From a virus (lineage: Duplodnaviria; Heunggongvirae; Uroviricota; Caudoviricetes): DNA of 64,000 nt. The notes below the pieces were generated by a model. That model worked only from the letters and a program-made list of their open reading frames with translations, ran no database searches and was not told the DNA's origin. Shown here one piece after another: positions 5,941 through 59,784 of the stretch. Position 1 is the stretch's first letter, and each line of letters opens with the position of its first letter. Location of the stretch: positions 23,746 to 87,745 of IMG/VR virus record IMGVR_UViG_3300027776_000001; one strand, written 5' to 3'. The translations under genes and the position numbers were made by a program.

Positions 5941-6654
5941 TTACAAAGTTTGTGCTAATGAAAGCACAGTTGAAATTACCGAATTAATATCGGCAGTTAG
6001 AAAGCATTCAGTAGAACCGTCAAATATTTCTCGAGGTTGTTGGAATGTTTTCTTTAATTCTTGTAAAACTTTTATTTCAAGGTCTGCTATAAAATCACCC
6101 GTCCCATTTAGTTCAAACTTAATAGTAAAGTCCTTACCTGATGTGCGGGAGATTGGCTTTATTCTTTCAGTCACTTCCCGATTAGTGATTCCGATTTTGA
6201 CAACATTGTCTACAGCAATTATGTATAGAGTTCCGGGCTTGTATCGATTAAATCCGTGAGAGGCACACTTAGGACACCCTTTACCAGATGAATGGTTTGC
6301 AGCAGACTGAGAAAATACTCCATGAACCTTGCATTTAATGCTTATCTTACTGTGAGCATTTAATGGTTGCTCAGTCAGTGAGTAGTCATAAGTATCACCA
6401 TGTACAGTTTCAAATTTGTCTAACCAATCGGTTAGTGAACTTTGGCGAGCGAGGCGTTGTTTATCACTTTTACATAGAGGACAACCATTTCCTCTTAGAT
6501 GTGCGTCAGCAGTAACCTCCCAATCACCATGTTCTTTGCAAGTAACTGAAATCCTACTAATCGCAGATTTATAAACTACATTACCATAGTCATACAGGCT
6601 ACCATGGCGAAGTTTACACTGTGAGATATACTCCTCTGTTGTCTTTTTCTTCAT
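5941..6654 (-). CDS. homing endonuclease-like protein, T5orf172/GIY-YIG-like C-terminal domain with two N-terminal zinc-ribbon repeats
   Basis: Repeats CKEHGDW..H..GCPLC and CKVHGVF..H..GCPKC; C-terminal LYIIAVDNVVKIGITNR motif; paralog of 42380..43144; inserted inside tail module. Confidence 0.5.
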   Translation of the reverse strand: MKKKTTEEYISQCKLRHGSLYDYGNVVYKSAISRISVTCKEHGDWEVTADAHLRGNGCPLCKSDKQRLARQSSLTDWLDKFETVHGDTYDYSLTEQPLNAHSKISIKCKVHGVFSQSAANHSSGKGCPKCASHGFNRYKPGTLYIIAVDNVVKIGITNREVTERIKPISRTSGKDFTIKFELNGTGDFIADLEIKVLQELKKTFQQPREIFDGSTECFLTADINSVISTVLSLAQTL

Positions 6655-19227: not shown

Positions 19228-20034
19228 ATGGGCCGTTCAGCACGCTCAGAAGAAATTGAAGAAGCCATCAAACCACGCCGTGGTGCTAGCCGAAGGGCTA
19301 TCAAAGAAGCACCAAGGGCTATTAAAGAGAAGTTTGTCGAAGCAAGGCTGCAGAAAGTCTACACAATTTCAGCCAAGACAGAGAATCAGGCCAAGGCACT
19401 AGAAATGATGAAGAATCGTCAAGTTGTAGTGCTAAAAGGTAGTAGCGGAACAGGTAAGACATTCCTTGCGTGTGTACAAGCAGCGAATGAATACTTGAAG
19501 GGTAAAGTAAAGCGGATTGTTCTGATTCGTCCTTATGAACAGGTGGGTAAATCTATCGGTCTTCGTCCCGGTACAGGTGATGAAAAGCTGCGGCCTCTGA
19601 TGCAAAGTATGTTGCAAACCCTTGAACGTGTTTTCGGCAAAGCCGAGCTGGAGGCTAAGATCAATGAGGGTACGATTGTCCTTGAAGCCCTTGAAGATGT
19701 ACGTGGTCGCTCATATGCTGACGCATTCGTAATTGTAGATGAGCTACAAAACGTAGATGTGAAGGGTGTTAAGGCTCTGCTTACTCGACTTGAAGATACT
19801 AGCCGTTTGGTTGGTTGTGGTGATGGCAAGCAGAAGGATACTAAAGTCGAAAGCGGTATTGATTGGCTGGCAAAGGTAATGGACAAGGTCAAGAAAGAGC
19901 GCCCCCGTTACTTGAATGAAGATGATCTACGCCAAGCCTATGAAAACTTTGGTGTAGTAGAATTCAACAATGATGATATCGTCCGTGGTGGCTTCACTGC
20001 CCTGATGGTAAAAGTATTTGACGAAGAACAATAA
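19228..20034 (+). CDS. phoH: PhoH-like ATPase
   Basis: Walker A GSSGTGKTF, PhoH-type core (VLIRPYEQVG...VIVDELQN). Confidence 0.85.
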   Translation: MGRSARSEEIEEAIKPRRGASRRAIKEAPRAIKEKFVEARLQKVYTISAKTENQAKALEMMKNRQVVVLKGSSGTGKTFLACVQAANEYLKGKVKRIVLIRPYEQVGKSIGLRPGTGDEKLRPLMQSMLQTLERVFGKAELEAKINEGTIVLEALEDVRGRSYADAFVIVDELQNVDVKGVKALLTRLEDTSRLVGCGDGKQKDTKVESGIDWLAKVMDKVKKERPRYLNEDDLRQAYENFGVVEFNNDDIVRGGFTALMVKVFDEEQ

Positions 20035-20043
20035 GGAGAAATT

Positions 20044-20694
20044 ATGCGCAATAAGCAAATCAAAAACACACGTTTCGGTACAGAGTTTGATGGTGATAGC
20101 GCCCCATTCGCTGTACGTGCTCGTGGCTCAATGTCGTATAATTACGTAATTGACGTCTTCGGAGGTCTGGATAACCTGTCAGATATTCAGGATGCCATCT
20201 ATGCCCTGTCGATTGCTGAGGAAGATGACACTGTACAGATCAATTTGAACAGTCCCGGTGGCAGCATACACATTGCTGATACCCTGATCATGGCAATGAA
20301 GAAATGTCTAGCTCCAGTTCACATCATAGCTTCTGGCCAGATTTGTTCTGCTGCTACATTCATTATTCTCAGTGCAGATAGCTTTGAGATTAGCCCATTC
20401 ACCACTATCATGTGTCACTCTGCCTCTTATGGATTTGGTGGTAGTATGGAAGATGTACGGAATTACACAGAATTCCAGTTCAACCAGTGTATGAAGACCC
20501 TGCGTTACTACTACTTCGGCTTCCTGTCTGGTGAAGAAATTCACGATCTTGTTTACAATAAGCGTGAGCTGTGGATGGACAGCAAGGAGTTTGTGCAACG
20601 GTTTAAGAATCGTATGGAAGCAATCGAGAAGCTGAACTTGGAAGACACAGATGCAGAAGTATTGCAAGAAGTGATTGACAAAACCTACCAGTAA
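20044..20694 (+). CDS. ClpP-like serine protease (second copy, early region)
   Basis: NLNSPGGSIH, GQICSAATFI (Ser) and TIMCHSAS (His) resemble ClpP motifs. Confidence 0.55.
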   Translation: MRNKQIKNTRFGTEFDGDSAPFAVRARGSMSYNYVIDVFGGLDNLSDIQDAIYALSIAEEDDTVQINLNSPGGSIHIADTLIMAMKKCLAPVHIIASGQICSAATFIILSADSFEISPFTTIMCHSASYGFGGSMEDVRNYTEFQFNQCMKTLRYYYFGFLSGEEIHDLVYNKRELWMDSKEFVQRFKNRMEAIEKLNLEDTDAEVLQEVIDKTYQ

Positions 20695-31169: not shown

Positions 31170-31520
31170 TCACTGATTATCTTGTGTGTAGTATATCTTA
31201 AGAGATTGAGGAGTAAGCCATCCGAGAAGTCTCCATCCTCCAGCCATTCCATAAGAGCCATCTGCTAGCAGCTTCCACTTCTTTGCATGCTCCAAGGCTT
31301 CTTCTTTATTAAGAAACTCACCCTCATTGGTGAGAAATCCCTCTTCATACCCTTCAACAAAGTTGTTGTATTCTTGCTCACGAACATGCTGGAGTATAAC
31401 ACTCCAATCTTTTGTAAAACGATCTAAAAAGAATATATCTGTTGAAGATAAATCCTTGAGAGCCATTCGTGTAATCTGTACACAATGGTCTTCCTCATTT
31501 AGAGATATTTGTCGGGCCAT
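31170..31520 (-). CDS. hypothetical protein
   Basis: 116 aa ORF. Confidence 0.35.
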   Translation of the reverse strand: MARQISLNEEDHCVQITRMALKDLSSTDIFFLDRFTKDWSVILQHVREQEYNNFVEGYEEGFLTNEGEFLNKEEALEHAKKWKLLADGSYGMAGGWRLLGWLTPQSLKIYYTQDNQ

Positions 31521-31945
31521 TATTTACTCTCCTTTTCAATTGACCAAGAGTGTGTTCCTTTGATCTTATCGACTTTCTTTTTAGCAATGAACACATGCAC
31601 TGGCTTATTCAGTGAACGCATATAGTCAATCATCCCCTTAGTTCCATTAGATTTTCCATCCCATATGGCAAGCAATACATCTGCATAGTCCCCCATTTGA
31701 CGGTTGCGAATATGACCAGCAGCCTTGCCATGCTTGTTCCAGTCAGCAGGAAATCGCTTTATTTTCCAGCCATATTTACATGCAATGTACTCCGCATGCT
31801 GATCAGGGCCAGTAGCCATGCCTGTAACAATCTCAAAATCTGGTGATTCTGTGTCCACAATGTTATCACATTCTAGGTTGAATATTGCCTCATCTGTTAC
31901 TGTCCAGTCTGAGATTTGCCGACTGCCTGCTACGATTAATTTCAT
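31520..31945 (-). CDS. DUF2493/SLOG-family Rossmann-fold protein
   Basis: MKLIVAGSR..GMATGPDQHAEYIA..GKSNGTKGMIDY pattern; ATG 31945 with AGGAGG RBS. Confidence 0.45.
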   Translation of the reverse strand: MKLIVAGSRQISDWTVTDEAIFNLECDNIVDTESPDFEIVTGMATGPDQHAEYIACKYGWKIKRFPADWNKHGKAAGHIRNRQMGDYADVLLAIWDGKSNGTKGMIDYMRSLNKPVHVFIAKKKVDKIKGTHSWSIEKESK

Positions 31946-32006
31946 GAGTCCTCCTAAATTGTTGATTTTTAAGGTGATTTGAATATTTTTGACAAAACAG
32001 CCCACC

Positions 32007-36859: not shown

Positions 36860-37435
36860 TCAATGCTTTGTCAACCTCACAGTGCCATGACGTTCTGTAT
36901 AGCCGTCTGGTAAGTTATCTTCCCTGAATTCTATCGCCAACCGCATGGCCTCCTCTTGGCCTAATTTACCTATATTAAATTTCTTCTGTATTTTCTTACC
37001 TGAATCTAGGTAAACTGTAGAAACGTAATACTTAGCGTGCCTGTTGTTGCAGTTTTTACCAGTATCTTGTAGATAAATGCCCACAGGTAATCCTGTATCT
37101 TTTGAACGAGCTTTATTTCTTGAGTTTATTTTATTAGTTTCTGCCCTTAAATTGTTTATGGAGTTATTTAAAGAATTACCATCAATGTGGTCTATGACTT
37201 TACTGCTGATTTCCTTGTTGAAAATTTCCGCAATTACTCTATGAACCATATAAAGTTTTCTTTTATATTGTACTTGCCAGTATTGTTTACCATGGTGGTC
37301 TGTGTGAATACAACCTGCCGGCGTATTCTTCTTAATTGACAAAATTGTTAATCCCTTGCCTGACCAAATATCAATAGCCCACCTCAGACAAGATGGACTT
37401 GTCTCATCATAATAAAAAATTTCATCCCACTTCAT
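36860..37435 (-). CDS. HNH homing endonuclease (HNH_3-type), paralog of 47927..48466 and 63741..64000
   Basis: FYYDETSPSCLRW N-terminal motif; VIDHIDGNSLNNSINNLR HNH motif; ATG 37435 with AGGAG RBS. Confidence 0.6.
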   Translation of the reverse strand: MKWDEIFYYDETSPSCLRWAIDIWSGKGLTILSIKKNTPAGCIHTDHHGKQYWQVQYKRKLYMVHRVIAEIFNKEISSKVIDHIDGNSLNNSINNLRAETNKINSRNKARSKDTGLPVGIYLQDTGKNCNNRHAKYYVSTVYLDSGKKIQKKFNIGKLGQEEAMRLAIEFREDNLPDGYTERHGTVRLTKH

Positions 37436-37476: not shown

Positions 37477-37734
37477 TCAAGTGTTGTTTTGCTTGTTGTG
37501 GCGCTTCACTGCGTAGTCTAGACCCTTTGCAACCATAGAGATTACAAAGTATGCTCCAATAACAACAGGCCACAACGCCGTGGTTATAATAACCACCAGC
37601 ATAGCTCCACCGATTGCCTCTTCTTTTTCCTGACCCTTTTCATAGATATCTACAAGAGACTGATGAATCCAGTCCTTGCCATATATCAACCACACCACAG
37701 CCAGAATCAGTCCTATAGTGAGATAACCTAGCAT
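37477..37734 (-). CDS. hypothetical two-TM membrane protein (holin-like topology)
   Basis: 85 aa with two hydrophobic helices and charged C-terminus. Confidence 0.3.
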   Translation of the reverse strand: MLGYLTIGLILAVVWLIYGKDWIHQSLVDIYEKGQEKEEAIGGAMLVVIITTALWPVVIGAYFVISMVAKGLDYAVKRHNKQNNT

Positions 37735-38642
37735 GCTTCACTCCTAACAATGTTACGGATTTCCTCTACGGTTTGGTAACGGATAAGCGTACCATCTTCA
37801 TACACCAGTTCCAGCTCACCAGTAGCTTCCTCTTCACGAGTGGCCTGATCCTTCAGGAACAGAACACCATTTTCGTCACGACCTACGTGTAGCAGACCCT
37901 TAGCACTCTTCTTCACACCCTTGTCAGTGGCTGGGTCTTTGAAGAGTTCTCGGCCCGTACCATTCACAACAGCATGTGTAGCCTTCATTGCCATGCCGTA
38001 GGTGTCACGAGTGATATATTGGTAGGTATAAGACCCAATACCAAACACTACATTACCGCTAGCAAAGTTCATCTTAGCCAGTCGCGTAAGAATCTCTTCA
38101 GCACGCTCCAGAGTGATGCTATCACCATAGATCAGGCCAACCCGCTCACTCAGCATGCGATAACCAGTGGACGTTTCCGTACCACCAAAGGTGTTCCACA
38201 GGCAACGTACAGCGCCAAGGGCTTCGGACTCAGTTATTTCCTTGAAATCTAGGTCATAACCATCAAAATCACCGTAGTAGTAGCGAGCGTACTTATCCAC
38301 TTCGTAATACTTGCCTCCTACCTTGACAACTTCACAATCATCACTTATGTCCCTTTCCTTTATATCATCCACATCAGTGTACTCCACGAGTTCATGAATG
38401 TCGTATCCGCAGATAATACGGAAAGGATCGCCACTATCAGGACGGAACACAGTCTTTGCCAGACCTAGAGCATTCGGGGTACGGGCCAATATCTCCTCTT
38501 TACAAGCTGGTGCAATTTTAGTAATCACATCCCAGAAATTGTAAGTGTCCGATACATAACTGCAAACACCACTAGGATAAATGTTAGTAATGTAGTGCCG
38601 GAAAAACATTGTCTCGGCAATAAGCTTTAGATCATTCTTCAT
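37728..38642 (-). CDS. NAMPT-family phosphoribosyltransferase, C-terminal half (separately translated fragment of split gene; Namat/NadV-like)
   Basis: Homology to NAMPT C-terminal region (VVSDSYD-like CSYVSDTYNFWD, RPDSGDP); own GGAGG RBS + ATG at ~38642 overlapping stop of inserted HNH gene (ATGA). Confidence 0.6.
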   Translation of the reverse strand: MKNDLKLIAETMFFRHYITNIYPSGVCSYVSDTYNFWDVITKIAPACKEEILARTPNALGLAKTVFRPDSGDPFRIICGYDIHELVEYTDVDDIKERDISDDCEVVKVGGKYYEVDKYARYYYGDFDGYDLDFKEITESEALGAVRCLWNTFGGTETSTGYRMLSERVGLIYGDSITLERAEEILTRLAKMNFASGNVVFGIGSYTYQYITRDTYGMAMKATHAVVNGTGRELFKDPATDKGVKKSAKGLLHVGRDENGVLFLKDQATREEEATGELELVYEDGTLIRYQTVEEIRNIVRSEAC

Positions 38643-39177
38643 AAAACCTCCATGTAAGTTTAGTGCCATCTGGCAAAGTTCCTGCGGATTTGAAACCAGT
38701 TTTACCTCTGCAACATGCTGAAATATTGGATTTCTTAAGACCAAGAATTTCTGCTGCCTCTCCAATCGAGTTAAAAACTTGACCAGTAGTAGTACAGACA
38801 ACACTTTTTCCTTGACTTTCTCGAATACCTTGCTTTCTTTTTGCAAAATCTTTTATTAACCTATTGTCCCAAGCGTGTTGAGTTTGTTCTGACCGAGTTG
38901 CCCATTCAAGATTAGAGACATGATTATTCTTTTTGTCCCCATCCTTGTGGTTCACAGTCTCTTTCTTTTCAGGGTTAGGAATAAATGTTTCAGCAACTAG
39001 ACGATGAATCCTTTTTGTGTACCTGTGCCCGTCATCACCTTGTAGTCTAACTACTGAATACCCATCTTTGTTTCTTTGTGGTACAAGAAATCTGTCCACT
39101 GTCAGGGCATATACCTTCCCTTCACAAAATATAAGGTATTTAGAGAAGTTTGTCAACTTCTTCGGCTGTGTAGCCAT
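38632..39177 (-). CDS. HNH homing endonuclease inserted within NAMPT-like gene
   Basis: NHKDGDKKNNHVSNLEWATRSEQ HNH motif plus C-terminal IENR/NUMOD-like VFNSIGEAAEILGL; start taken at MATQPKK (~39177). Confidence 0.6.
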   Translation of the reverse strand: MATQPKKLTNFSKYLIFCEGKVYALTVDRFLVPQRNKDGYSVVRLQGDDGHRYTKRIHRLVAETFIPNPEKKETVNHKDGDKKNNHVSNLEWATRSEQTQHAWDNRLIKDFAKRKQGIRESQGKSVVCTTTGQVFNSIGEAAEILGLKKSNISACCRGKTGFKSAGTLPDGTKLTWRFYEE

Positions 39178-39979
39178 TCCATTCTCCTTTATCCTTAAGC
39201 TCTTGTTCAATAAGTAAAATATTACAAGATGCAGTACTGTGTTCGCTTGCAGGAACAGAGCCACCAAGGAACGTACTACCACCATTGTAGAACTGCTCAA
39301 GATAATCCATAGCAGGAATCGTATCAGTGCCAAGGAAGCTTAGCAAATGACCAGCGCTATAACCAGTATCAGACACACCACCAACACCACGGAAGCTGAA
39401 GTCATGACCTTGCCACTCAGTGAATTCCACAGGAGTGCCAGTCTTTTTTGCGTAGTGTACCAACAGACGCTTGTATTCAGCGGCAATAGTTGCAACAGTG
39501 GTGGCCTTCCACAGCTCTGCAGACAGCAGAGTTTCTAGGAAATTTGTCACCCAAAAGAACTCAGGCAGGGTATTAGTAATCGTCAGCATAGGCACCTTAG
39601 AAGGAACGAAGCTGCCTTCCTTGATAGCCTTAATACGGATTGGCAGATAGCCTAGCTTATGCAGAGCTTCGATATGATCAAAGCCTACAGCACCCGGCCC
39701 AAGAGAGCTATCCATACGACGCTGCCATTGCGCTTTCACCACTTCGAGAGGTTTACCAAAGAAATTACGCAGGAAATCATCCTGAATAATGTTCAGCAGG
39801 AAGCCCTGCAAGCCAAAGAATACCACACCATCCTTGGCAAAGCTGCTCTTCTTAGCCAAACGGCTGGAACGTGGTGTAAGGTTGGAGTAAATATACTCAG
39901 TGCCTTCAGGGTATTGATTGATGTGATTTATTTTGTAAAAATCAACCGCAGTAATCGGATTATAATTAAACATGTTCAT
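39140..39979 (-). CDS. NAMPT-family phosphoribosyltransferase, N-terminal half (Namat/NadV-like)
   Basis: [16 protein letters not shown] matches NAMPT N-terminus; [25 protein letters not shown] and SVPASEHST match conserved NAMPT core; last ~27 aa non-homologous read-through. Confidence 0.65.
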
Positions 39980-40493
39980 AGTCTCCTATTGGAAAATTAG
40001 TTCTGGCAAATTTGCCGTGCATCTGTATTGCGGCTTTATCGTAAGCTCTAGCAGCTTCCTCTTTAGTGTCGTATCTGCCAAGCTTGTAGATTATACCATC
40101 TTTTCGGATATAGGAAAGCCACCTTATTTCTCGCCCTTTCCTTGTGACACCTTTGAAGCCTGATTTACTCCAACCTTCTCTGTTTGCACAGTTATTACTT
40201 CTTGTTGCAGGTCGAAGATTTTCAATCCTGTTATCGTTCTCTACCCTGTTTTCATGGTCAATCTCATGGTCAGGATACTTACCATAATGAAGAAGCCATA
40301 CTAAACAGTGCTCACGGTAATATACACCATGAATTTTCAAGGTCACATAACCATGAACCGGGTGAACACTCCCCGCCCGTTTTCCTACACAATCCTTGGC
40401 TCTGCCTTTAACCCAAGTCTTGAAATACAAGTGCCCATCAGTCCGGTACTCATACCTTTCGTTGAGCACTTGAAGTAATTCTTCGTCACTCAC
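39966..40493 (-). CDS. HNH-AP2 homing endonuclease
   Basis: [20 protein letters not shown] motif and AP2-like [40 protein letters not shown]. Confidence 0.6.
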
Positions 40494-41368
40494 TACGCCT
40501 CCTTAGTTGGTATGTACAGCAAAGCCTTAACATCTTCTTTAAAGTTCTGCGATGTGCAGGCACAGAAGATATTATCGTAGTACGGCTTCAGAATGTCAAC
40601 ACCTTTCGTGAAGCGACCATGAGAAACGTACAAGTCTAGCTTGAATTCTTCACCACACCAACCTTGAAGAAATTTTGCTAGCAGAACAAATGTGCCTCCA
40701 CCGTCGCACAGGTCGTCTACCACAAGAATAGAAGTGCCCTTATCCATGTAGTACTTAATATCCGTGCCATTACACTTCCTAACACCTTGATAACTAAGCT
40801 CTCCAGTCTTCTCATCACGAGTCTTGAAGCCCATCAACACCTTGTCTTGCGACATACCAAGCGCTTCTGCCACCTTGAATACCTTCTTCAAGGCTCCAGC
40901 ATCAGGGGCAAGAATGTAGTCATAAGCCAAGCTATACTTGTAGCTCAGCATCTTAACTGTCTCAGCTTGACTGGCATAAGTGAGACGATCAATCATTTCA
41001 CTAACGTCAGAGTGAGGATCAATAGCCTTAACTTGATCGAAGTTGAGACTATTCAACATCTTAGCAAATACCTTCAGCGCATTAGCATCACCAACACTGG
41101 TCTTACGATCCTGCCGAGCAAAAGGAATGTACGGCATTGTTAATACTAGTGAAATGATTTTACGGTATGGCTCAAACAGGCTTGCAATCTGCGCCACCTG
41201 AAAGAACTCTTCACTGCTTTCCCAGTACCAGAGGATTTCTACAATACTATCCTCATAAGAGGAAAGCATATCAAGAAACTCATCATCCAAGCGAGCAGCA
41301 GGCTCTCCACAAGGGAATACCCACAGATTCTGGCTCACCACTTCATCATTAATTTTAACAGAAATCAT
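40493..41368 (-). CDS. ribose-phosphate pyrophosphokinase family protein (PRPP synthetase-like; candidate ADPR-PP synthetase Adps)
   Basis: [10 protein letters not shown] ribose-5-phosphate loop and [18 protein letters not shown]-binding motif. Confidence 0.65.
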
Positions 41369-42379: not shown

Positions 42380-43144
42380 ATGGGAAGAAAGGCAATTACA
42401 ACAGAAGAGTTTATTGAAGCAGCTAAAAAATTACACGGAGATACCTACAACTATTTCAAGACAAAATATACAGGAAGATTAAACAAGGTGTTGATCACTT
42501 GCCCTGTTCATGGTGATTTCATGCAATGGCCTGCTAGTCATCTGTCGGGTAGTGGGTGCAGGAAATGCTCTAGAAGTAGCAGAGCTAAGGGATTGGGAAA
42601 ATTCATAAACGAGTCTGTCTCCAAGTTTGGAAAGAAGTTTAGCTACAAAAATGTAGATTACAGGAATGCTCACTGTAAAGTAATCTTGGAATGTTCAATC
42701 CATGGAGAGTTTGAAATTATTGCACGAAAACACTTGCAAAGTCCTACAGGTTGCCCAAGCTGTGCTAAGACAGGTTTCAATCCCCATGCACCACAAGCTA
42801 CGTTTTATGTTTTCAATGTTATTGGTGAAAGAAGTTTTGTTAAGTTTGGCATAACTGGGAAATTAAATGACAGGCTAGCAACTCATAGAAGAAACCTGAA
42901 ATTACATGATTTAAGAATCTCTGGAGGTGTTTTATGTCTACATTTTTCAGCGAAAATGGTTCAAAAATTAGAGGCACATATAAAATCTAGTATAGTAGTT
43001 GAAAGGTCAGACATAAAGGGTTTCAAGACAGAGGTCACTACTTGTGTGCCAAAAGAAGAACTTCTCATGCTTTGCAAATATTGGTTGACTTCTAACGACG
43101 TTGCGTTTATAGTAACAGAACTTAAGAATAAGGAGTTAGTATGA
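42380..43144 (+). CDS. homing endonuclease-like protein, T5orf172/GIY-YIG-like with two zinc-ribbon repeats
   Basis: CPVHGDF..H..GCRKC and CSIHGEF..H..GCPSC repeats; FYVFNVIGERSFVKFGIT motif; paralog of 5941..6654. Confidence 0.5.
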   Translation: MGRKAITTEEFIEAAKKLHGDTYNYFKTKYTGRLNKVLITCPVHGDFMQWPASHLSGSGCRKCSRSSRAKGLGKFINESVSKFGKKFSYKNVDYRNAHCKVILECSIHGEFEIIARKHLQSPTGCPSCAKTGFNPHAPQATFYVFNVIGERSFVKFGITGKLNDRLATHRRNLKLHDLRISGGVLCLHFSAKMVQKLEAHIKSSIVVERSDIKGFKTEVTTCVPKEELLMLCKYWLTSNDVAFIVTELKNKELV

Positions 43145-43518
43145 CAAGAATTAATGTTGTTGATCCCTCTACGCTTCACTCTCGGCACCTTGTTGCAGAG
43201 TATCGTGAACTTCCTAGAGTTTTCGCGTTAGTTGCCAAAGCAAAGAAAGACTGGTACAAAAAGCAACCACAGTCCTATTGTATGAGAGAAGGTCATGCTA
43301 TCTTCTTCTACAATAAGCTCAAATACTTGGCAGACAGGCAGAAACTTCTTGTTGACGAAATGTTGAAGCGAGGGTATAGTCCACAGCATACAGAGTGTCT
43401 TGAGAAGCAATGGCGTGGTAAAATTCCAGATAACTACTGGTTCGATTATCAGCCAACAGAAGAAGCTATCAAGGTCAATCAAGAACGCATTGACACACGA
43501 CTTAAGGGGATGAAATAA
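43141..43518 (+). CDS. denV: pyrimidine dimer DNA glycosylase / endonuclease V (T4 DenV homolog)
   Basis: MTRINVV...HLVAEYRELPRVF closely matches T4 endonuclease V N-terminus; 125 aa. Confidence 0.8.
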   Translation: MTRINVVDPSTLHSRHLVAEYRELPRVFALVAKAKKDWYKKQPQSYCMREGHAIFFYNKLKYLADRQKLLVDEMLKRGYSPQHTECLEKQWRGKIPDNYWFDYQPTEEAIKVNQERIDTRLKGMK

Positions 43519-47535: not shown

Positions 47536-47952
47536 GTGAGTATGTCTAAAATCTTTTTGATCGCCTTCTTAGGCGTTTTGTCAGTCGTTTCGTGGGGTAC
47601 GACACATAATGTCGCCAGAGATAACCAATGCATGGCTGTAGCAATGTGGAAGGAAGCTAACACAGAGAGCCTGAGAGGGAAGCGAGCTGTCCTAGATGTG
47701 ATTGAGTACAGGATGAAAGTTCTTGACAAGACAGCATGTCAAGTGATACAACAGCCTAAGCAATTTTCCTTTTACAGGAAAGGTATGAGTTTAAAAGCCA
47801 CTGAAGCACAATTAAGAGCTATGGAGGCTGTTTACAGGAGTCCAAAAGTACTTTATGGGTACGCTTATTTTCACGCTAAGAGTGTCAAGCCAAAGTGGGC
47901 TGCTAAAATGAAGGGGAGGGTTGTAATTGGGAACCATGTATTCTATAAATAA
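47536..47952 (+). CDS. SleB-family cell wall hydrolase with N-terminal signal/anchor (candidate endolysin)
   Basis: CMAVAMWKEANTESLRGKRAVLDVIEYR...QPKQFSF matches Hydrolase_2/SleB core; hydrophobic N-terminus. Confidence 0.6.
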   Translation: MSMSKIFLIAFLGVLSVVSWGTTHNVARDNQCMAVAMWKEANTESLRGKRAVLDVIEYRMKVLDKTACQVIQQPKQFSFYRKGMSLKATEAQLRAMEAVYRSPKVLYGYAYFHAKSVKPKWAAKMKGRVVIGNHVFYK

Positions 47953-48466
47953 TTGGTGGGAATTCTTTGTTTATGATGAAACAAGTCCAAGCTGTTTGAG
48001 GCGAATTAGTGATGGCAAGCCTGCAGGATATATTTTTCTGGATAAGTGGTGGAGGGTTAGTTTTAAAGGAAAGAGTTACCTAGTTCACCGAATAATTTAC
48101 GAAATGATGACAAATACCCGTTTAGGGAATTATGTGATTGATCATAAAGACTTAGACGGGGCTAACAATGTAATAACAAATCTGCGAAAGACCACTTATA
48201 AAATCAACAACCAGAACAGACCAAAGCCTAGCAATAACACTTCAGGGTATGTCGGTGTTCGGTTACTGAAAGATAAATATTGGCAGGCACGTTGGCAAGA
48301 GAATGGTAAAGGGGTTTGCAAAAGTTTCAGTGTAGAGGAATTTGGAAACACCGCTCTGGAAATGGCTATCGAGTTTCGTAAACAAAGAATAATGGAACTA
48401 AATCTAAACGGACAAGACTACACAGAAAATCACGGTAAAGAGTACGCAAAAAGGAGAAACAAATGA
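47927..48466 (+). CDS. HNH homing endonuclease (paralog of 36860..37435)
   Basis: FVYDETSPSCLRR; VIDHKDLDGANNVITNLR HNH motif. Confidence 0.6.
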   Translation: MGTMYSINNWWEFFVYDETSPSCLRRISDGKPAGYIFLDKWWRVSFKGKSYLVHRIIYEMMTNTRLGNYVIDHKDLDGANNVITNLRKTTYKINNQNRPKPSNNTSGYVGVRLLKDKYWQARWQENGKGVCKSFSVEEFGNTALEMAIEFRKQRIMELNLNGQDYTENHGKEYAKRRNK

Positions 48467-48959: not shown

Positions 48960-49934
48960 ATGAAGATTGAAGGTAAAGGCGGTATTTCGGCGGAGATTGT
49001 GGCAGATTCTGTTTCTCCTTGGGGTAAGCGTATCACTACGTTTGTTCTGGAGTACCCACGATTCATTCATGCAGAATTCATGACACACCGGATGATTAGT
49101 AAGAACTCTGCTTCCAGTCGTGCTATTCCTGTGGCGAAGGTGATTGAGCAAGTAATGGAAAATGCTGCTATGCCGATTCATTGGGGTAAGAATCAAACAG
49201 GGATGCAGGCCAAGGAAGAGTTAGACACTTATGATAAACTCTTCGTACAAGAGGAATGGGATAGAGCAGCATCCCATGCAATTGACGTAGCTGATTATAT
49301 GAGTCGTGCTGGCGCTCATAAACAAATCGTCAACCGTATCCTTGAGCCTTTCCAATTTATGCGTGTGGTTGCTACGGCTACGGAGTGGGAAAACTTCTTC
49401 TGGCTTCGTGATCATCCAGATGCTCAGCCTGAGATTGCAGAGTTGGCACGAGTGATGCGTGAGGTTCAGGATAAGTCTATTCCAGTGAATCTGGAAACTG
49501 GCGAATGGCATTTGCCGTTTGTTTGGTGTAGCAGGGATGCCATAACAGATGAAATCGGCTATCACATTGGGGAGGTAGGCGAGGAAAGCCATAAGCAACT
49601 AACTGTAGAGGATGCCTTGAAGGTGTCGGCAAGCTGCTGTGCTCAAGTGAGTTTCCGTAAGAGTGACACAAGTCTTGAAAAAGCTCTTGCTATTTGGGAT
49701 CGTTTAGTGGATAGTGAGCCTGTGCATGCCAGTCCGTTTGAACATCAGGCGAAGGTGATGCAAAAAGAACACTGGAACACAGAAGATGAGTACGGTGTTA
49801 ACGACCACTCTCTGCCGGGTACTTGGGAAAGGGGCATCACCCACACTGATAAGGAGTGCAATCTGTGGTCTGGCAACTTCCAAGGGTGGGTTCAACATCG
49901 TCAACTGATTCCTAATCATGTAAGAAGGGGGTAA
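48960..49934 (+). CDS. thyX: flavin-dependent thymidylate synthase ThyX-like (variant THR motif, C-terminal extension)
   Basis: FMTHRMISKNSASSRA aligns to ThyX RHRxxSxxxxSxR; NFFWLRDHPDAQPEIAELA aligns to ThyX NLRADSHAQWEI; 324 aa. Confidence 0.7.
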   Translation: MKIEGKGGISAEIVADSVSPWGKRITTFVLEYPRFIHAEFMTHRMISKNSASSRAIPVAKVIEQVMENAAMPIHWGKNQTGMQAKEELDTYDKLFVQEEWDRAASHAIDVADYMSRAGAHKQIVNRILEPFQFMRVVATATEWENFFWLRDHPDAQPEIAELARVMREVQDKSIPVNLETGEWHLPFVWCSRDAITDEIGYHIGEVGEESHKQLTVEDALKVSASCCAQVSFRKSDTSLEKALAIWDRLVDSEPVHASPFEHQAKVMQKEHWNTEDEYGVNDHSLPGTWERGITHTDKECNLWSGNFQGWVQHRQLIPNHVRRG

Positions 49935-56245: not shown

Positions 56246-56485
56246 ATGGCAGAGGACTTGCAAACACTGGAGAAAACCTACAAGAAGGCTAAACGAGCAT
56301 TGGACAATGCTTCTAATAAGTATAGCAAAGCTTTGTCAGACCTACAATCTGCTTGTCCTCATACAAAGGTTGCTTGGAGTGAATGGAAGCGTAGTAATAG
56401 TGAATGGGACTACTACGCACATTACTCGCGTAATGGATATTGTGAACTTTGTAGAAAGTGGTTCACAGAGAGTAAGGAGAGATAA
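56246..56485 (+). CDS. hypothetical zinc-ribbon protein
   Basis: 79 aa; CPH...C..C pairs. Confidence 0.35.
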   Translation: MAEDLQTLEKTYKKAKRALDNASNKYSKALSDLQSACPHTKVAWSEWKRSNSEWDYYAHYSRNGYCELCRKWFTESKER

Positions 56486-57411
56486 TGCCAAAAGCAATCA
56501 TTACAATTGGTGTGTCAGCATCAGGTAAGTCTGCATGGGCCGATGAATTTGTCAAGACCAACAAGGACTATGTCAAAATTGAACACGATGAATTGCGTAA
56601 AGTAATCCTGTTGGAACAAGGAATAGACATTGGTGACGGTAATATCTGGCGTTTCTACGATTTCCGTAAGCATGAAGCTGCTACTCAGCGGTTGGCTGAT
56701 ACTGAGCTTGACCTGCATCTGCAGTATCAGAATTACAACCTTATCTTCTCTGACACCAACCTGAATCCAAAGTATCGTAACCAACTGGTTGACAAGCTTC
56801 AACGAGCAGGGTATGATGTGGAAATTAAAGAGTTCCCTATCACATTTGAAGAGGCTGTCAAGCGTAATGCCAAGCGTCAGCATGCTGTCGATAAGGAAGT
56901 GCTTTACAAGCAGTGGCAACGTTGGATTGATTATTTGAAGAGCAAGGGTGAATTCCCTAATGGGGCACTCATCCAGTCTCCAACTCCTCTTCATCATGCA
57001 GTATTGCTAGACATGGAGGGGACAATTGCTCTTCACACTTCTGGTCGCAGTCCTTTTGACGAAGATCGTGTGCATGAAGATAGTTGTGATTTGATTGTTA
57101 AGCATGTGATTGAAGGGTTGGATGCAAAGGGCTATACAATCATTGTCATGTCTGGTCGTACAGAAGGGTGCAAAGAAGCTACAGAAGAGTGGCTTCAGTA
57201 TTACGGCATTCCTTATGATGAAATTCACATGCGTAAGGTGGAGGATACACGAAGGGATTTTGAAGTAAAGAAAGACTTGTTTGTTGAGCATGTTCTCGGC
57301 AAGTTTCATGTGTATGCCGTGTTTGATGATCGGCCTCAAGTTGTAAGGCTGTGGCACGATCTTGGTATTAACAAAGTGTTTTGTGTTGGCAACCCTTGGG
57401 TGGAGTTCTGA
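56485..57411 (+). CDS. polynucleotide kinase-3'-phosphatase (T4 Pnkp-like)
   Basis: N-terminal P-loop GVSASGKS; C-terminal HAD-like LLDMEGTIA (DxDGT-type) phosphatase motif. Confidence 0.7.
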   Translation: MPKAIITIGVSASGKSAWADEFVKTNKDYVKIEHDELRKVILLEQGIDIGDGNIWRFYDFRKHEAATQRLADTELDLHLQYQNYNLIFSDTNLNPKYRNQLVDKLQRAGYDVEIKEFPITFEEAVKRNAKRQHAVDKEVLYKQWQRWIDYLKSKGEFPNGALIQSPTPLHHAVLLDMEGTIALHTSGRSPFDEDRVHEDSCDLIVKHVIEGLDAKGYTIIVMSGRTEGCKEATEEWLQYYGIPYDEIHMRKVEDTRRDFEVKKDLFVEHVLGKFHVYAVFDDRPQVVRLWHDLGINKVFCVGNPWVEF

Positions 57412-58842: not shown

Positions 58843-59784
58843 TTGATGAATGATTTTGCAATTGTTGGCAGTCGTAGCAAAGGAAATTGTGTAGCGACAC
58901 ACCGCCCGGCTTCTATTGATATGGACGTTATTTGCTCGTTTGACAATTGGAATTCATTCGTCAAGCGGCAAGCTCAACGTAAGGAGCTTGTACGTGCTGT
59001 CCCATTGTCTGGAACCAAGATGATGATGGAACTGAAACGTAATGACTGGGATGGGATACAGATTTATGAGGCAGAGGTGTGGTATAGTGAAGATGATCAT
59101 GCTTACAGGCTCTTCGACTATATTAAGCGTAACCATGAAGAAGAAGTAAGCGTGAGTACTGATACAACGGTCTACCATGCCAATTTAGACACGCTCTATA
59201 TGATGAAGATGAGCCACCGCTTCCTGAAGAACAGTCCTCACTTCCAGAAGACTCGCAAGGATATCTTGGCTCTCCGTGAAGCTGGTGCCAAGGAACCTGA
59301 AGGAGAATTGCTAGAGCTGTTTAAGGAACGTGAAGACCTCACCTATGTCTACAAGCATCCAAAGCTGAATGTAAGCAAGAAGGAGTTCTTTACAGATGAT
59401 GTTCCTTATGTTTATGACCATGACAGTATTCATCGTGCTGTCGCCATTGGTAGTACTCCTGCTTATACTCACTTTACTACAGGTGAAGTGATGTTCAGTA
59501 ATAAGCTGTTTAACGAAGCCCCGAAGGCTTTGAAACTTTTGTCTGGACTCGAAGAAGCAATGGTGCTGGCGTTGGAACGTTCTATTGTACCTTTCACCAC
59601 AGACCCGACTGCAGCATTTAAGATAGCTTTGGAGAAGGTATGTACTAGCATTACTAGTGGAGATTTTCGTAACTTCTGTTGGGAGAATTACGATACCATC
59701 ATGGCTATGTTTGACCCAGAGGGTATGATGAATTCCTTCAAACAGGGGTTGGCTAATGGTACTGTTACAGTACATAATAAATAA
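58843..59784 (+). CDS. hypothetical protein
   Basis: 313 aa ORF. Confidence 0.35.
   Translation: MMNDFAIVGSRSKGNCVATHRPASIDMDVICSFDNWNSFVKRQAQRKELVRAVPLSGTKMMMELKRNDWDGIQIYEAEVWYSEDDHAYRLFDYIKRNHEEEVSVSTDTTVYHANLDTLYMMKMSHRFLKNSPHFQKTRKDILALREAGAKEPEGELLELFKEREDLTYVYKHPKLNVSKKEFFTDDVPYVYDHDSIHRAVAIGSTPAYTHFTTGEVMFSNKLFNEAPKALKLLSGLEEAMVLALERSIVPFTTDPTAAFKIALEKVCTSITSGDFRNFCWENYDTIMAMFDPEGMMNSFKQGLANGTVTVHNK

What the first reader, a model, noticed from the sequence alone, without database searches (positions are those of the whole stretch)
37728..41368. PRPP-synthetase-like gene next to a NAMPT-like gene: candidate NARP1-type NAD+ reconstitution module
A Prs-family gene ([22 protein letters not shown]) lies immediately upstream of a NAMPT-family gene. 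This pairing matches the reported phage NARP1 pathway: Adps (ADP-ribose pyrophosphate synthetase) plus Namat (nicotinamide ADPR transferase). That pathway rebuilds NAD+ after depletion by defence systems such as Thoeris, DSR, SIR2-HerA or SEFIR. The alternative is a NadV-type salvage route using host NMNAT; no NMNAT or Nudix gene is visible in this window. The locus also holds two HNH homing endonucleases, one between the two pathway genes and one inside the NAMPT-like gene.
Basis: partly seen in the sequence, partly recalled or inferred. Interest (0 to 1): 0.8.

Follow-up and report, generated by a model that had tools for sequence, protein, structure and literature searches.

The report
Phage NAD+-rebuilding genes, one split
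This uncultivated phage carries a divergent copy of the already-described two-enzyme NARP1 pathway that rebuilds NAD+ after bacterial defences destroy it, invaded by two selfish endonuclease genes, one of which cuts the second enzyme's gene cleanly into two separately translated pieces.

Summary
On the minus strand lie a 291-aa Prs-like gene (40493-41368), an HNH-AP2 endonuclease gene (39966-40493), the N half of a NAMPT-like gene (39140-39979), an HNH-NUMOD endonuclease gene (38632-39177) and the C half (37728-38642).

The NARP1 reading is supported by every sequence-level test I could run.
- The Prs-like protein fails all curated Prs models, as validated Adps proteins do. It sits in a 100%-supported clade with SPbetaL1 and FADO Adps, apart from Prs of five phyla and archaea.
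- The NAMPT-like protein matches the Namat crystal structure best. It carries the Namat motif (GSYTYQYITRD) and Arg40, and separates at 100% from NMNAT-linked phage Nampts.
- No NMNAT or Nudix domain was found in about 73.6 of about 87.7 kb.

The interruption is not an intron or an intein. It is a seamless 542-bp free-standing endonuclease insertion, and deleting it restores a 569-codon ORF. It lies in a surface loop, and each fragment has its own ribosome-binding site.

NARP1 is already known, so this is a new, divergent member. The two-piece Namat is the only unusual feature: 0 of 80 nearest relatives have it. Whether it is active is untested.

The parts
40493..41368 (-). Adps-like gene (ADP-ribose pyrophosphate synthetase candidate), 291 aa
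   Evidence: phrog_619 at 203 bits. It is below the cut-off on all Prs models: TIGR01251 at 64 bits against a cut-off of 113, and PF13793 at 17 bits. Validated Adps score 96-106 and 18-20 bits on the same models; E. coli Prs scores 423 and 180. It sits in a 100%-supported NJ clade with SPbetaL1 and FADO Adps. Lys182 aligns with the catalytic Lys162 of SPbetaL1 Adps.
39966..40493 (-). Free-standing HNH_3+AP2 homing endonuclease gene (HEG1) wedged between Adps and Namat, 175 aa. Its GTG start overlaps the Adps stop codon, and its 3' end overlaps the Namat start.
   Evidence: PF13392 at E=2.9e-11 and PF00847 at E=1e-9. Sequence of both junctions read. It is 37% identical to Felix O1 ORF305, which occupies the same junction. 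GC3 is 0.38, against 0.44-0.46 in the pathway genes.
39140..39979 (-). Namat N fragment, 279 aa (277 aa from the second ATG at 39973). Residues 1-268 are native (39176-39979). They are followed by an 11-aa tail, [11 protein letters not shown], read from the 5' end of HEG2.
   Evidence: 258 bits to the Namat structure 9w5w, against 131 bits to mammalian Nampt. It carries D13, Y15, R40, F194, S195, R197, D219, A244 and the catalytic EHS histidine. Junction mapped.
38634..39175 (-). 542-bp insertion that interrupts Namat between Asn268 and Asp269. Its boundaries are ambiguous within a 4-nt GAAT repeat.
   Evidence: Removing it restores a single 569-codon ORF. That length matches the uninterrupted homologues P0121 and P0122 (568 and 569 aa), and the sequence aligns across the junction.
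38632..39177 (-). HNH_3 + I-HmuI/NUMOD-like homing endonuclease gene (HEG2), 181 aa, with its own AAAGGAG ribosome-binding site. Its ATG uses the AT of the Asn268 codon, and its TGA uses the GA of the next Asp codon.
   Evidence: PF13392 at E=1e-10 and PF22083 at E=7.9e-7. Sequence read. It is in a third reading frame relative to both Namat halves. GC3 is 0.30.
37728..38642 (-). Namat C fragment, 304 aa: Met-Lys-Asn followed by 301 native residues. A GGAGG ribosome-binding site lies 4 nt upstream of the ATG, inside the 3' end of HEG2.
   Evidence: PF04095 at E=1.6e-23. 195 bits to Namat 9w5x, against 73-76 bits to Nampt. It carries R67, D69, G173-D174-S175 and the clamp motif G203-S-Y-T-Y-Q-Y-I-T-R-D213. 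Three long assemblies carry exactly this 304-aa product, and a gene caller calls it on the one shown.

Best explanation
The locus is a divergent NARP1 (NAD+ reconstitution pathway 1) module of an uncultivated phage of about 88 kb with a Felix O1/PAK_P1-like terminase.

**Proposed mechanism, inferred from homology with the published pathway.**
1. Host NADase defences (SIR2-, TIR- or SEFIR-based) split NAD+ into ADP-ribose and nicotinamide.
2. The 291-aa Adps-like enzyme uses ATP to pyrophosphorylate ADP-ribose to ADPR-PP.
3. Namat then joins nicotinamide to ADPR-PP and releases NAD+.

**Selfish passengers.** Two HNH homing-endonuclease genes have invaded the operon. One sits at the Adps|Namat junction. 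The other is a seamless 542-bp insertion in a surface loop of Namat.

**Consequence for Namat.** It is made as two polypeptides: an N fragment of about 279 aa and a C fragment of 304 aa, each with its own ribosome-binding site. They would have to associate non-covalently, because the active site uses residues from both. The precedent is the 'genes-in-pieces' NrdA of phage Aeh1.

**Shown:** gene structure, clade membership, signature motifs, exact insertion boundaries, and the absence of intron or intein features.

**Inferred:** the enzymatic activities, assembly of the two fragments, and anti-defence function.
For: **Adps side**
- Sub-threshold on every curated Prs model, like validated Adps and unlike E. 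coli Prs.
- BLAST scores: 154 and 126 bits to phage Prs-likes that sit next to Namat, 62-75 bits to validated Adps, and 38 bits to E. coli Prs.
- NJ clade with SPbetaL1, FADO and Felix O1 proteins supported 99-100% against Prs from five bacterial phyla and archaeal class III Prs.
- Clade-specific PHSDV and DGGGTF motifs, and the catalytic Lys is conserved.
- The three nearest homologues examined all have a Namat-like gene immediately downstream.

**Namat side**
- Best sequence and fold match is the Namat crystal structure 9w5w/9w5x.
- GSYTYQYITRD fits the Namat consensus GSXphiXphiXphiTRD, and Arg40 is present (PMC12774641).
- All 21 ligand-contact residues mapped are conserved or carry a state seen in other Adps-linked Namats. 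At the six positions where Namat and Nampt differ, the window has the Namat state.
- 100% bootstrap split from NMNAT-adjacent phage Nampts.
- 77 of the 80 nearest IMG/VR relatives have an Adps-like gene upstream.

**No NARP2 partner**
- No NMNAT or Nudix domain in the window or its right flank.

**The split**
- Deleting the 542 bp restores a 569-codon ORF.
- There are no premature stops in either half, and both have a Shine-Dalgarno site plus ATG.
- The split site is a loop (residues 264-269) between two helices in a model with pLDDT 92.7.
- The same allele occurs in three long assemblies.
- Fragmented genes that still function are documented for Aeh1 nrdA (PMC3045599).
Against:
- The Adps-like protein is only about 31% identical to validated Adps, over 165-176 aligned residues. 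At most 43% identity links it to anything among 5.8 billion protein clusters. Substrate choice therefore rests on clade membership and synteny.
- The trees are neighbour-joining only, and the archaeal Prs sequences used were partial.
- The split may have inactivated Namat. No endonuclease-free allele and no second split example was found, so there is no comparative evidence that a split Namat is maintained by selection.
- About 14 kb of the genome, likely tail genes, was not screened for NMNAT.
Confidence: 0.62

Rival explanations
1. The locus derives from NARP1 but is decaying. The endonuclease insertion has inactivated Namat, so the phage no longer rebuilds NAD+, or only makes ADPR-PP. The two half-ORFs are recent, not-yet-degraded remnants.
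For: The active site needs residues from both fragments. No other split Namat was found among the 120 best protein hits, a spread sample of 60 GenBank phages, or the 80 nearest IMG/VR loci. No endonuclease-free allele is available for comparison.
Against: Neither half has a stop codon or frameshift, and all catalytic and clamp residues are intact. The C fragment has a GGAGG-ATG start exactly at the junction. The break lies in a surface loop within a lineage-variable helix pair. The identical allele appears in three independent long assemblies. A functional precedent exists in PMC3045599.
Confidence: 0.25
2. The locus is conventional salvage. The Prs-like enzyme makes PRPP, the NAMPT-like enzyme makes NMN, and a host or unseen phage NMNAT finishes NAD+ synthesis (NadV or NARP2-like route).
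For: Pfam, PHROG and NCBIfam names say Prs and NAMPT/NAPRTase. Published Namat retains some PRPP-dependent NMN activity in vitro (PMC12774641). About 14 kb of the genome was not screened.
Against: The Prs-like protein misses every Prs cut-off by a wide margin and lies in the Adps clade. The NAMPT-like protein is separated at 100% from NMNAT-linked Nampts and has the adenine clamp. No NMNAT or Nudix domain was found in about 73.6 kb. [quoted passage not shown]
Confidence: 0.07
3. The interruption is removed after transcription or translation, by a group I or II intron, an intein, or split inteins, so that a single Namat polypeptide is made.
For: HNH endonucleases of this type are often encoded in phage group I introns (background knowledge). 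One tblastn hit lies in an intron-containing gene of a Staphylococcus phage.
Against: No Rfam intron match, even at E<=10. The 542-bp insert is essentially all ORF (546 nt including the borrowed bases), leaving no room for a ribozyme core. The three ORFs are in three different frames, which excludes an intein. The fragment tails are 11 and 3 aa, too short for split-intein halves (compare PMC2677866).
Confidence: 0.02

Closest known systems
NARP1 (Adps + Namat) of phages Bas63, SPbetaL1 and FADO (Osterman et al., 10.1101/2024.02.11.579819; Namat structures 9w5w/9w5x, PMC12774641)
   Same: Same gene order, with the Prs-like gene directly upstream of the NAMPT-like gene on one strand. Same clades for both proteins. 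Conserved catalytic Lys in Adps. Conserved Namat catalytic core, SCH motif and SCL arginine. No NMNAT found.
   Different: Very divergent: the Adps-like protein is about 31% identical to SPbetaL1 Adps, and Namat is 42-43% identical to SPbetaL1 Namat. Two homing-endonuclease genes lie inside the operon. Namat is encoded as two ORFs. Namat also carries a helix pair after the catalytic His and a beta-rich insert of about 60 aa; both also occur in some other Adps-linked Namats but are absent from the crystallised enzyme.
Felix O1 Adps-HNH-Namat arrangement (AF320576 ORF301-ORF305-ORF308)
   Same: An HNH+AP2 endonuclease, 37% identical to HEG1, sits at the same junction between the Adps-like and Namat-like genes. 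The Adps-like proteins are 33% identical.
   Different: Felix O1 Namat is one uninterrupted ORF of 593 aa. The window's phage has the additional internal endonuclease.
Genes-in-pieces NrdA of Aeromonas phage Aeh1, split by the free-standing endonuclease gene mobE (PMC3045599)
   Same: A free-standing homing-endonuclease gene is inserted in a conserved enzyme gene without an intron or intein. This gives two separately translated fragments that carry short tails derived from the insertion.
   Different: The host gene and the endonuclease family differ. The tails here are very short (11 and 3 aa). Activity and assembly are shown for NrdA but are untested here.
NARP2 / NadV-NatV salvage of Vibrio phage KVP40 and relatives
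   Same: A NAMPT-family enzyme is used by a phage to restore NAD+.
   Different: NARP2 Nampts form a separate clade with GG.L.Q..(D/N)RD in place of the aromatic clamp. They lie next to, or in the same genome as, an NMNAT. KVP40-like Nampts are only about 28% identical to the window protein. No NMNAT was found here.

Membership tests
Adps (NARP1 step 1) | Prs-family protein that falls in the phage Adps clade, separate from cellular Prs | tested here: met
   NJ bootstrap support of 99-100% for a clade holding the window protein, SPbetaL1 Adps, FADO Adps, and the Felix O1, phiEa21-4 and 05F01 homologues. The outgroup was Prs of Gamma- and Alphaproteobacteria, Bacillota, Bacteroidota and Actinomycetota, plasmid paralogues, and archaeal class III fragments. 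The score profile on curated Prs models matches validated Adps, not Prs.
Adps (NARP1 step 1) | Namat homologue within ten genes (97% of Adps-clade members in the defining paper) | tested here: met
   The Namat halves start 514 bp downstream on the same strand. The nearest homologues P0002, P0004 and P0017 also have Namat directly downstream.
Adps (NARP1 step 1) | Catalytic lysine (K162 of SPbetaL1 Adps) | tested here: met
   Lys182, in the sequence GFKTR, aligns with K162 in GHKQR.
Adps (NARP1 step 1) | Pyrophosphorylates ADP-ribose, not ribose-5-phosphate | not testable with these tools
   Needs purified protein with ADPR or R5P plus ATP, and LC-MS.
Namat (NARP1 step 2) | Nampt-like catalytic core (D13, Y15, F189, R192, D215, catalytic His, R306, D308, G360-D361 in SPbetaL1 numbering) | tested here: met
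   All are conserved. They are distributed over both fragments.
Namat (NARP1 step 2) | Selectivity-clamp helix motif GSXphiXphiXphiTRD with aromatic X at positions 3 and 7 | tested here: met
   The window has GSYTYQYITRD and SPbetaL1 has GSFTYQYNTRD. By contrast, HdNadV has GAQTYQRNTRD, Xcc Nampt GGALLQKVDRD, human NAMPT GGGLLQKLTRD, and NMNAT-linked phage Nampts GG.L.Q..(D/N)RD.
Namat (NARP1 step 2) | Selectivity-clamp loop with an Arg, Lys or Tyr stacking residue (R40 in SPbetaL1) | tested here: met
   Arg40, in TPRSSRL, aligns with R40. The loop is 5 residues longer than in SPbetaL1.
Namat (NARP1 step 2) | Clade of Adps-associated proteins distinct from Nmnat-associated Nampt | tested here: met
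   100% NJ bootstrap split. Phmmer scores are 258+195 bits to Namat, against 131+73 bits to mammalian Nampt. Foldseek ranks Namat first.
Namat (NARP1 step 2) | Prefers ADPR-PP over PRPP and yields NAD+ directly | not testable with these tools
   Needs an enzyme assay. Here it must also be shown that the two fragments assemble.
NARP2 (Nampt + Nmnat) | Nmnat gene in the same genome (94% of NARP2 phages) | tested here: inconclusive
   No PF01467 or Nudix hit in any ORF of at least 90 aa in the window, nor in 9.6 kb to the right. About 14 kb to the left of the window could not be fetched.
NARP2 (Nampt + Nmnat) | Protein belongs to the KVP40-type Nampt clade | tested here: not met
   One search places it outside that clade. 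It is about 28% identical to KVP40-like phage Nampts.
Canonical ribose-phosphate pyrophosphokinase (Prs) | Reaches the curated Prs family thresholds (TIGR01251, NF00xxxx, PF13793/PF14572) | tested here: not met
   TIGR01251 at 63.9 bits against a cut-off of 113. The best equivalog scores 69 bits against a cut-off of 296. PF13793 scores 17 bits against 25, and there is no PF14572 hit. E. coli Prs scores 423, 533 and 180 bits on the corresponding models.
Group I/II intron carrying a homing endonuclease | Conserved ribozyme core flanking the endonuclease ORF | tested here: not met
   No Rfam hit at the gathering threshold or at E<=10. The 542-bp insert is filled by the 546-nt ORF.
Intein / split-intein 'fractured gene' | In-frame insertion, or intein halves on the fragment ends | tested here: not met
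   The three ORFs are in three frames. The non-native tails are 11 and 3 aa.
Genes-in-pieces (free-standing endonuclease splitting a gene, Aeh1 nrdA type) | Free-standing endonuclease ORF inside a conserved gene, with both fragments having their own translation signals | tested here: met
   The endonuclease has its own AAAGGAG-ATG start. The C fragment has a GGAGG-N4-ATG start. The N fragment terminates 11 codons into the insert.
Genes-in-pieces (free-standing endonuclease splitting a gene, Aeh1 nrdA type) | Fragments assemble into an active enzyme | not testable with these tools
   The only support is indirect. The break lies in loop 264-269 between two helices of a confident model.

The most novel reading that the evidence does not exclude
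Namat works here as a non-covalently assembled two-piece enzyme, giving a three-polypeptide NARP1. It was created by a seamless homing-endonuclease insertion that supplies the stop codon, the ribosome-binding site and the start codon for the fragments. The short insertion-derived tails ([11 protein letters not shown] and MKN) may help assembly, as in Aeh1 NrdA. If so, this would be the first anti-defence enzyme shown to tolerate fragmentation by a selfish element. It would also mark a natural split site for engineering Nampt-family enzymes.
Probability: 0.5. Interest if true: 0.45.

Novelty: new member of a known kind. Interest (0 to 1): 0.33.

Why it matters
The locus extends NARP1, a published counter-defence pathway, to a very divergent, uncultivated phage lineage. 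Its Adps-like protein has no relative above 43% identity among 5.8 billion protein clusters.

It also shows that published sequence signatures, namely the Namat clamp motif and the Adps clade, let such loci be told apart from ordinary Prs/NadV salvage without experiments.

The only feature beyond the known system is the clean fragmentation of Namat by a homing endonuclease. If the pieces still work, it is a natural example of an immune-evasion enzyme surviving invasion by a selfish element. It also points to a permissive split site in Nampt-family enzymes. If they do not work, the locus shows selfish elements eroding a phage's counter-defence. Neither outcome changes the picture of NAD+ warfare.

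Tried and rejected
**Searches that led nowhere**
- Megablast of the locus against 50,697 phage records found no match, so the phage has no close cultivated relative.
- I tried to fetch the rest of the genome to screen for NMNAT. IMG/VR and JGI metagenome scans with the tape-measure C-terminus returned only distant relatives. Exact-protein look-ups returned only 2-kb contigs on the left side. The right side worked.
- I tried to obtain Bas63 by guessing BASEL accession numbers, which gave Bas27 and Bas51 instead. Felix O1, phiEa21-4, SPbetaL1 and FADO were used in its place.
- The genome-contig scan with E. coli Prs gave only gammaproteobacterial Prs at 80% identity or more. Broader Prs sequences were then taken from chromid and plasmid records.
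- The first Biopython bootstrap run timed out and was replaced by a numpy implementation.
- A literature search for a split phage NAMPT or Namat found nothing relevant.

**Ideas considered and rejected**
- A group I or II intron.
- An intein or split intein, on the grounds of reading frames and tail lengths.
- PDB entry 9ke8 as a phage protein. It is Haemophilus ducreyi NadV.
- A macro-domain phosphatase or RyR-domain partner of 'extended' NARP1 operons. No such domain was found in the flanking small ORFs.

Full report
**Observation.**
Reading the minus strand from 41368 down to 37728 gives five ORFs:
- a 291-aa Prs-like ORF (40493-41368) that contains [12 protein letters not shown] and [13 protein letters not shown];
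- a 175-aa HNH_3+AP2 endonuclease ORF (39966-40493);
- a 279-aa ORF matching the N-terminal half of NAMPT-family proteins (39140-39979; PF18127; phrog_448 positions 9-262);
- a 181-aa HNH_3+NUMOD endonuclease ORF (38632-39177);
- a 304-aa ORF matching the C-terminal half (37728-38642; PF04095; phrog_448 positions 262-496).

All neighbours overlap or abut. An independent gene caller on a public assembly of the same phage produced the same five genes.

**Source.**
The window has no close relative among 50,697 deposited phages. Its large terminase is at most 42% identical to Pseudomonas PAK_P1-like and related myoviruses. The same sequence occurs as contigs of about 87.7 kb in at least three metagenome assemblies. 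The window carries lambda-E-type capsid, portal, terminase, five tRNAs and many homing-endonuclease genes.

**Is the Prs-like protein a Prs or an Adps?**
- *Curated models.* It fails all of them. PF13793 and PF00156 each score about 17 bits, below the gathering thresholds. TIGR01251 scores 64 bits against a cut-off of 113. The best NCBIfam equivalog scores 69 bits against a cut-off of 296.
- *Calibration.* This is the behaviour of validated Adps: SPbetaL1 and FADO score 96-106 bits on TIGR01251 and 18-20 bits on PF13793. E. coli Prs scores 423 and 180 bits.
- *Pairwise BLAST.* It gives 154 and 126 bits to phage Prs-likes that lie next to Namat-like genes (Klebsiella 05F01, Erwinia phiEa21-4). 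It gives 62-75 bits to validated Adps and 38 bits to E. coli Prs.
- *Trees.* In neighbour-joining trees with 200 bootstraps, the window protein falls in a clade with SPbetaL1 Adps, FADO Adps and the Felix O1, phiEa21-4 and 05F01 proteins. The clade is supported at 99% and at 100% with a broader outgroup. That outgroup held Prs from Gamma- and Alphaproteobacteria, Bacillota, Bacteroidota and Actinomycetota, three plasmid paralogues, and two partial archaeal class III Prs.
- *Motifs.* The clade shares (D/E)PHSDV, where class I Prs has DLHAxQIQGFF. It shares DD(L/I)CDGGxTF or SSFGGTF, where Prs has D(T/S)GGT. My inference is that loss of the Thr in the 5-phosphate loop makes room for the ADP moiety.
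- *Catalytic residue.* The lysine mutated in the defining paper (K162) is conserved as K182.
- *Synteny.* The three nearest metagenomic homologues examined each have an uninterrupted Namat-like gene immediately downstream.

**Is the NAMPT-like protein a Nampt/NadV or a Namat?**
- *Solved structures.* Both halves match the SPbetaL1 Namat structure best: 258 and 195 bits. Haemophilus ducreyi NadV scores 201 and 168 bits. Mammalian Nampt scores 131 and 73 bits, and Xanthomonas Nampt 92 and 76 bits.
- *Clamp signature.* The structure paper defines a Namat-specific selectivity clamp: the helix motif GSXphiXphiXphiTRD with aromatic X, and a loop with a stacking Arg, Lys or Tyr (PMC12774641). The window has GSYTYQYITRD and Arg40. 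NadV and Nampt proteins have GAQTYQRNTRD, GGALLQKVDRD or GGGLLQKLTRD.
- *Contact residues.* All 21 ligand-contact residues mapped from the crystal structure are conserved or carry a state seen in other Adps-linked Namats. At the six positions that separate Namat from Nampt, the window has the Namat state.
- *Tree.* A neighbour-joining tree separates Adps-linked proteins, including the window, from four phage Nampts with 100% support. Three of those four lie next to an NMNAT gene.
- *Relatives.* Of the 80 nearest relatives in IMG/VR, 77 have an Adps-like gene upstream on the same strand. Two of the three exceptions lack upstream sequence.

**NMNAT.**
Pfam scans covered every ORF of at least 90 aa in the window plus the small neighbours of the locus. 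They found no cytidylyltransferase-type NMNAT, Nudix, macro or RyR domain. Precomputed Pfam calls for 9.6 kb to the right of the window also show none. About 14 kb to the left, downstream of the tape-measure gene and probably tail genes, could not be fetched.

**Nature of the interruption.**
- *Frames.* The two Namat halves and the inner endonuclease ORF are in three different frames. This excludes an intein.
- *No intron.* Rfam finds no group I or II intron, either at gathering thresholds over the whole window or at E<=10 in the locus.
- *Exact junction.* Alignment with uninterrupted homologues of 56% identity places the break between Asn268 and Asp269...ELKDKGEWN|DLKLIAETMFF. In homologue P0124 the same stretch reads ...QLKEQGFLG DTKLEAEKIFF.
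- *Restored ORF.* Deleting window 38634-39175 (542 nt) restores a single 569-codon ORF. The best homologues are 568 and 569 aa.
- *Seamless fit.* The endonuclease ORF is 546 nt. Its ATG uses the last two bases of the Asn268 codon, and its TGA uses the first two bases of the Asp codon. No room is left for a ribozyme core.
- *Fragment ends.* The N fragment runs 11 codons into the insert ([11 protein letters not shown]) and stops. The C fragment starts at an ATG eight bases before the end of the insert, preceded by GGAGG, which adds Met-Lys-Asn. These tails are far too short for split-intein halves (compare PMC2677866).
- *Foreign origin.* The endonuclease genes have GC3 of 0.30-0.38, against 0.44-0.46 for the pathway genes.

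The architecture is that of a free-standing homing-endonuclease insertion producing a gene in pieces, as described for nrdA and mobE of phage Aeh1 (PMC3045599).

**Can the pieces work?**
An AlphaFold2 model of the rejoined protein is confident (pLDDT 92.7, pTM 0.90). It puts the break in a six-residue loop (264-269) between helices 247-263 and 270-286. This helix pair is missing from SPbetaL1 Namat, FADO Namat and several of the closest homologues, so it is a lineage-variable, presumably peripheral element.

Both fragments are free of stops and keep all functional residues. The same allele occurs in three long assemblies. On the other hand, the active site needs both fragments. I also found no second example of a split Namat:
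- 0 of the 120 best protein hits;
- 0 of a spread sample of 60 GenBank phages;
- 0 of the 80 nearest IMG/VR loci.

PHROGs does contain half-length 'nicotinamide phosphoribosyl transferase' families (phrog_16547 and phrog_15800). Fragmented annotations therefore exist somewhere among deposited phages. Activity of the split enzyme remains an inference, which I put at roughly 0.5-0.6.

**The outer endonuclease is ordinary.**
Felix O1 has a homologous HNH+AP2 gene (37% identity) at the same Adps|Namat junction. About 30 of the 77 IMG/VR loci have more than 240 nt between the two genes, some with HNH-like hits.

**Comparison with the known, and verdict.**
NARP1 was described in 2024 and found in 859 phage genomes, about 4.3% of those analysed (10.1101/2024.02.11.579819). 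Namat structures and a signature motif followed (PMC12774641). The window's locus passes every sequence-level membership test for Adps and Namat that I could run. It fails those for canonical Prs and for NARP2-type Nampt.

It is therefore a new, strongly divergent member of a known system, not a new system. The fragmentation of Namat by a seamless endonuclease insertion is the only unusual aspect. Its functional consequence is open. Interest is modest.

Noticed in passing
window 36860-37435, 38632-39177, 39966-40493, 47927-48466, 5941-6654, 42380-43144; L089:10394-10972, 15293-15775, 18810-19376: The genome is unusually rich in free-standing homing-endonuclease-type genes (HNH_3/AP2 and DUF723 types). 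At least six lie in the window and three more just to its right. Those checked have lower GC3 than their neighbours.
   Followed up: partly
L108 (Felix O1 AF320576) 3950-4441: Felix O1 ORF305, annotated only as 'T7 gene 3.8-like', is an HNH+AP2 protein 37% identical to the window's HEG1. It sits at the same Adps|Namat junction, which suggests a recurrent homing site at this gene boundary.
   Followed up: partly
window 31520-32005 (minus strand): A 161-aa protein with a YspA/SLOG domain (PF10686, E=9e-8) lies 5.7 kb downstream of the NARP1 locus on the same strand. From background knowledge, SLOG domains bind cyclic-ADPR-type signals in Thoeris ThsA, so a role as a signal sponge is conceivable. 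This was not examined.
   Followed up: no
window 56485-57411, 58843-59784, 15919-16609; L089:16226-17599: An RNA-repair-like gene set is present: polynucleotide kinase-phosphatase (AAA_33 + HAD_PNKP), DUF7275, five tRNA genes, and a TROVE/Ro60-like protein just outside the window.
   Followed up: no
window about 38040-38220 (joined Namat residues ~345-405): Namat carries a beta-rich insert of about 60 aa (strands 370-401 in the model). It is present in most of the nearest homologues examined and absent from the crystallised SPbetaL1 Namat. Its function is unknown.
   Followed up: partly
window 39156-39128 (minus strand): A near-consensus sigma-70-like site (TTGACA-17-TATATT, 11 of 12 matches) lies inside HEG2, downstream of its start codon. 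It could drive a transcript for the Namat C fragment alone. Overall, promoter-like hits in the region are only slightly above shuffled expectation (21 against 13.2 +/- 4.0).
   Followed up: no
window 43141-43518, 48960-49934, 19228-20034, 20044-20694: Other auxiliary genes are present: a DenV-type pyrimidine-dimer glycosylase, the flavin-dependent thymidylate synthase ThyX, a PhoH-like ATPase and a ClpP-like protease.
   Followed up: no
L126 (IMGVR_UViG_3300005264_000064): This is one of the 80 nearest Namat homologues. It has no detectable Adps-like gene within 3.5 kb upstream, unlike 77 of the others.
   Followed up: no
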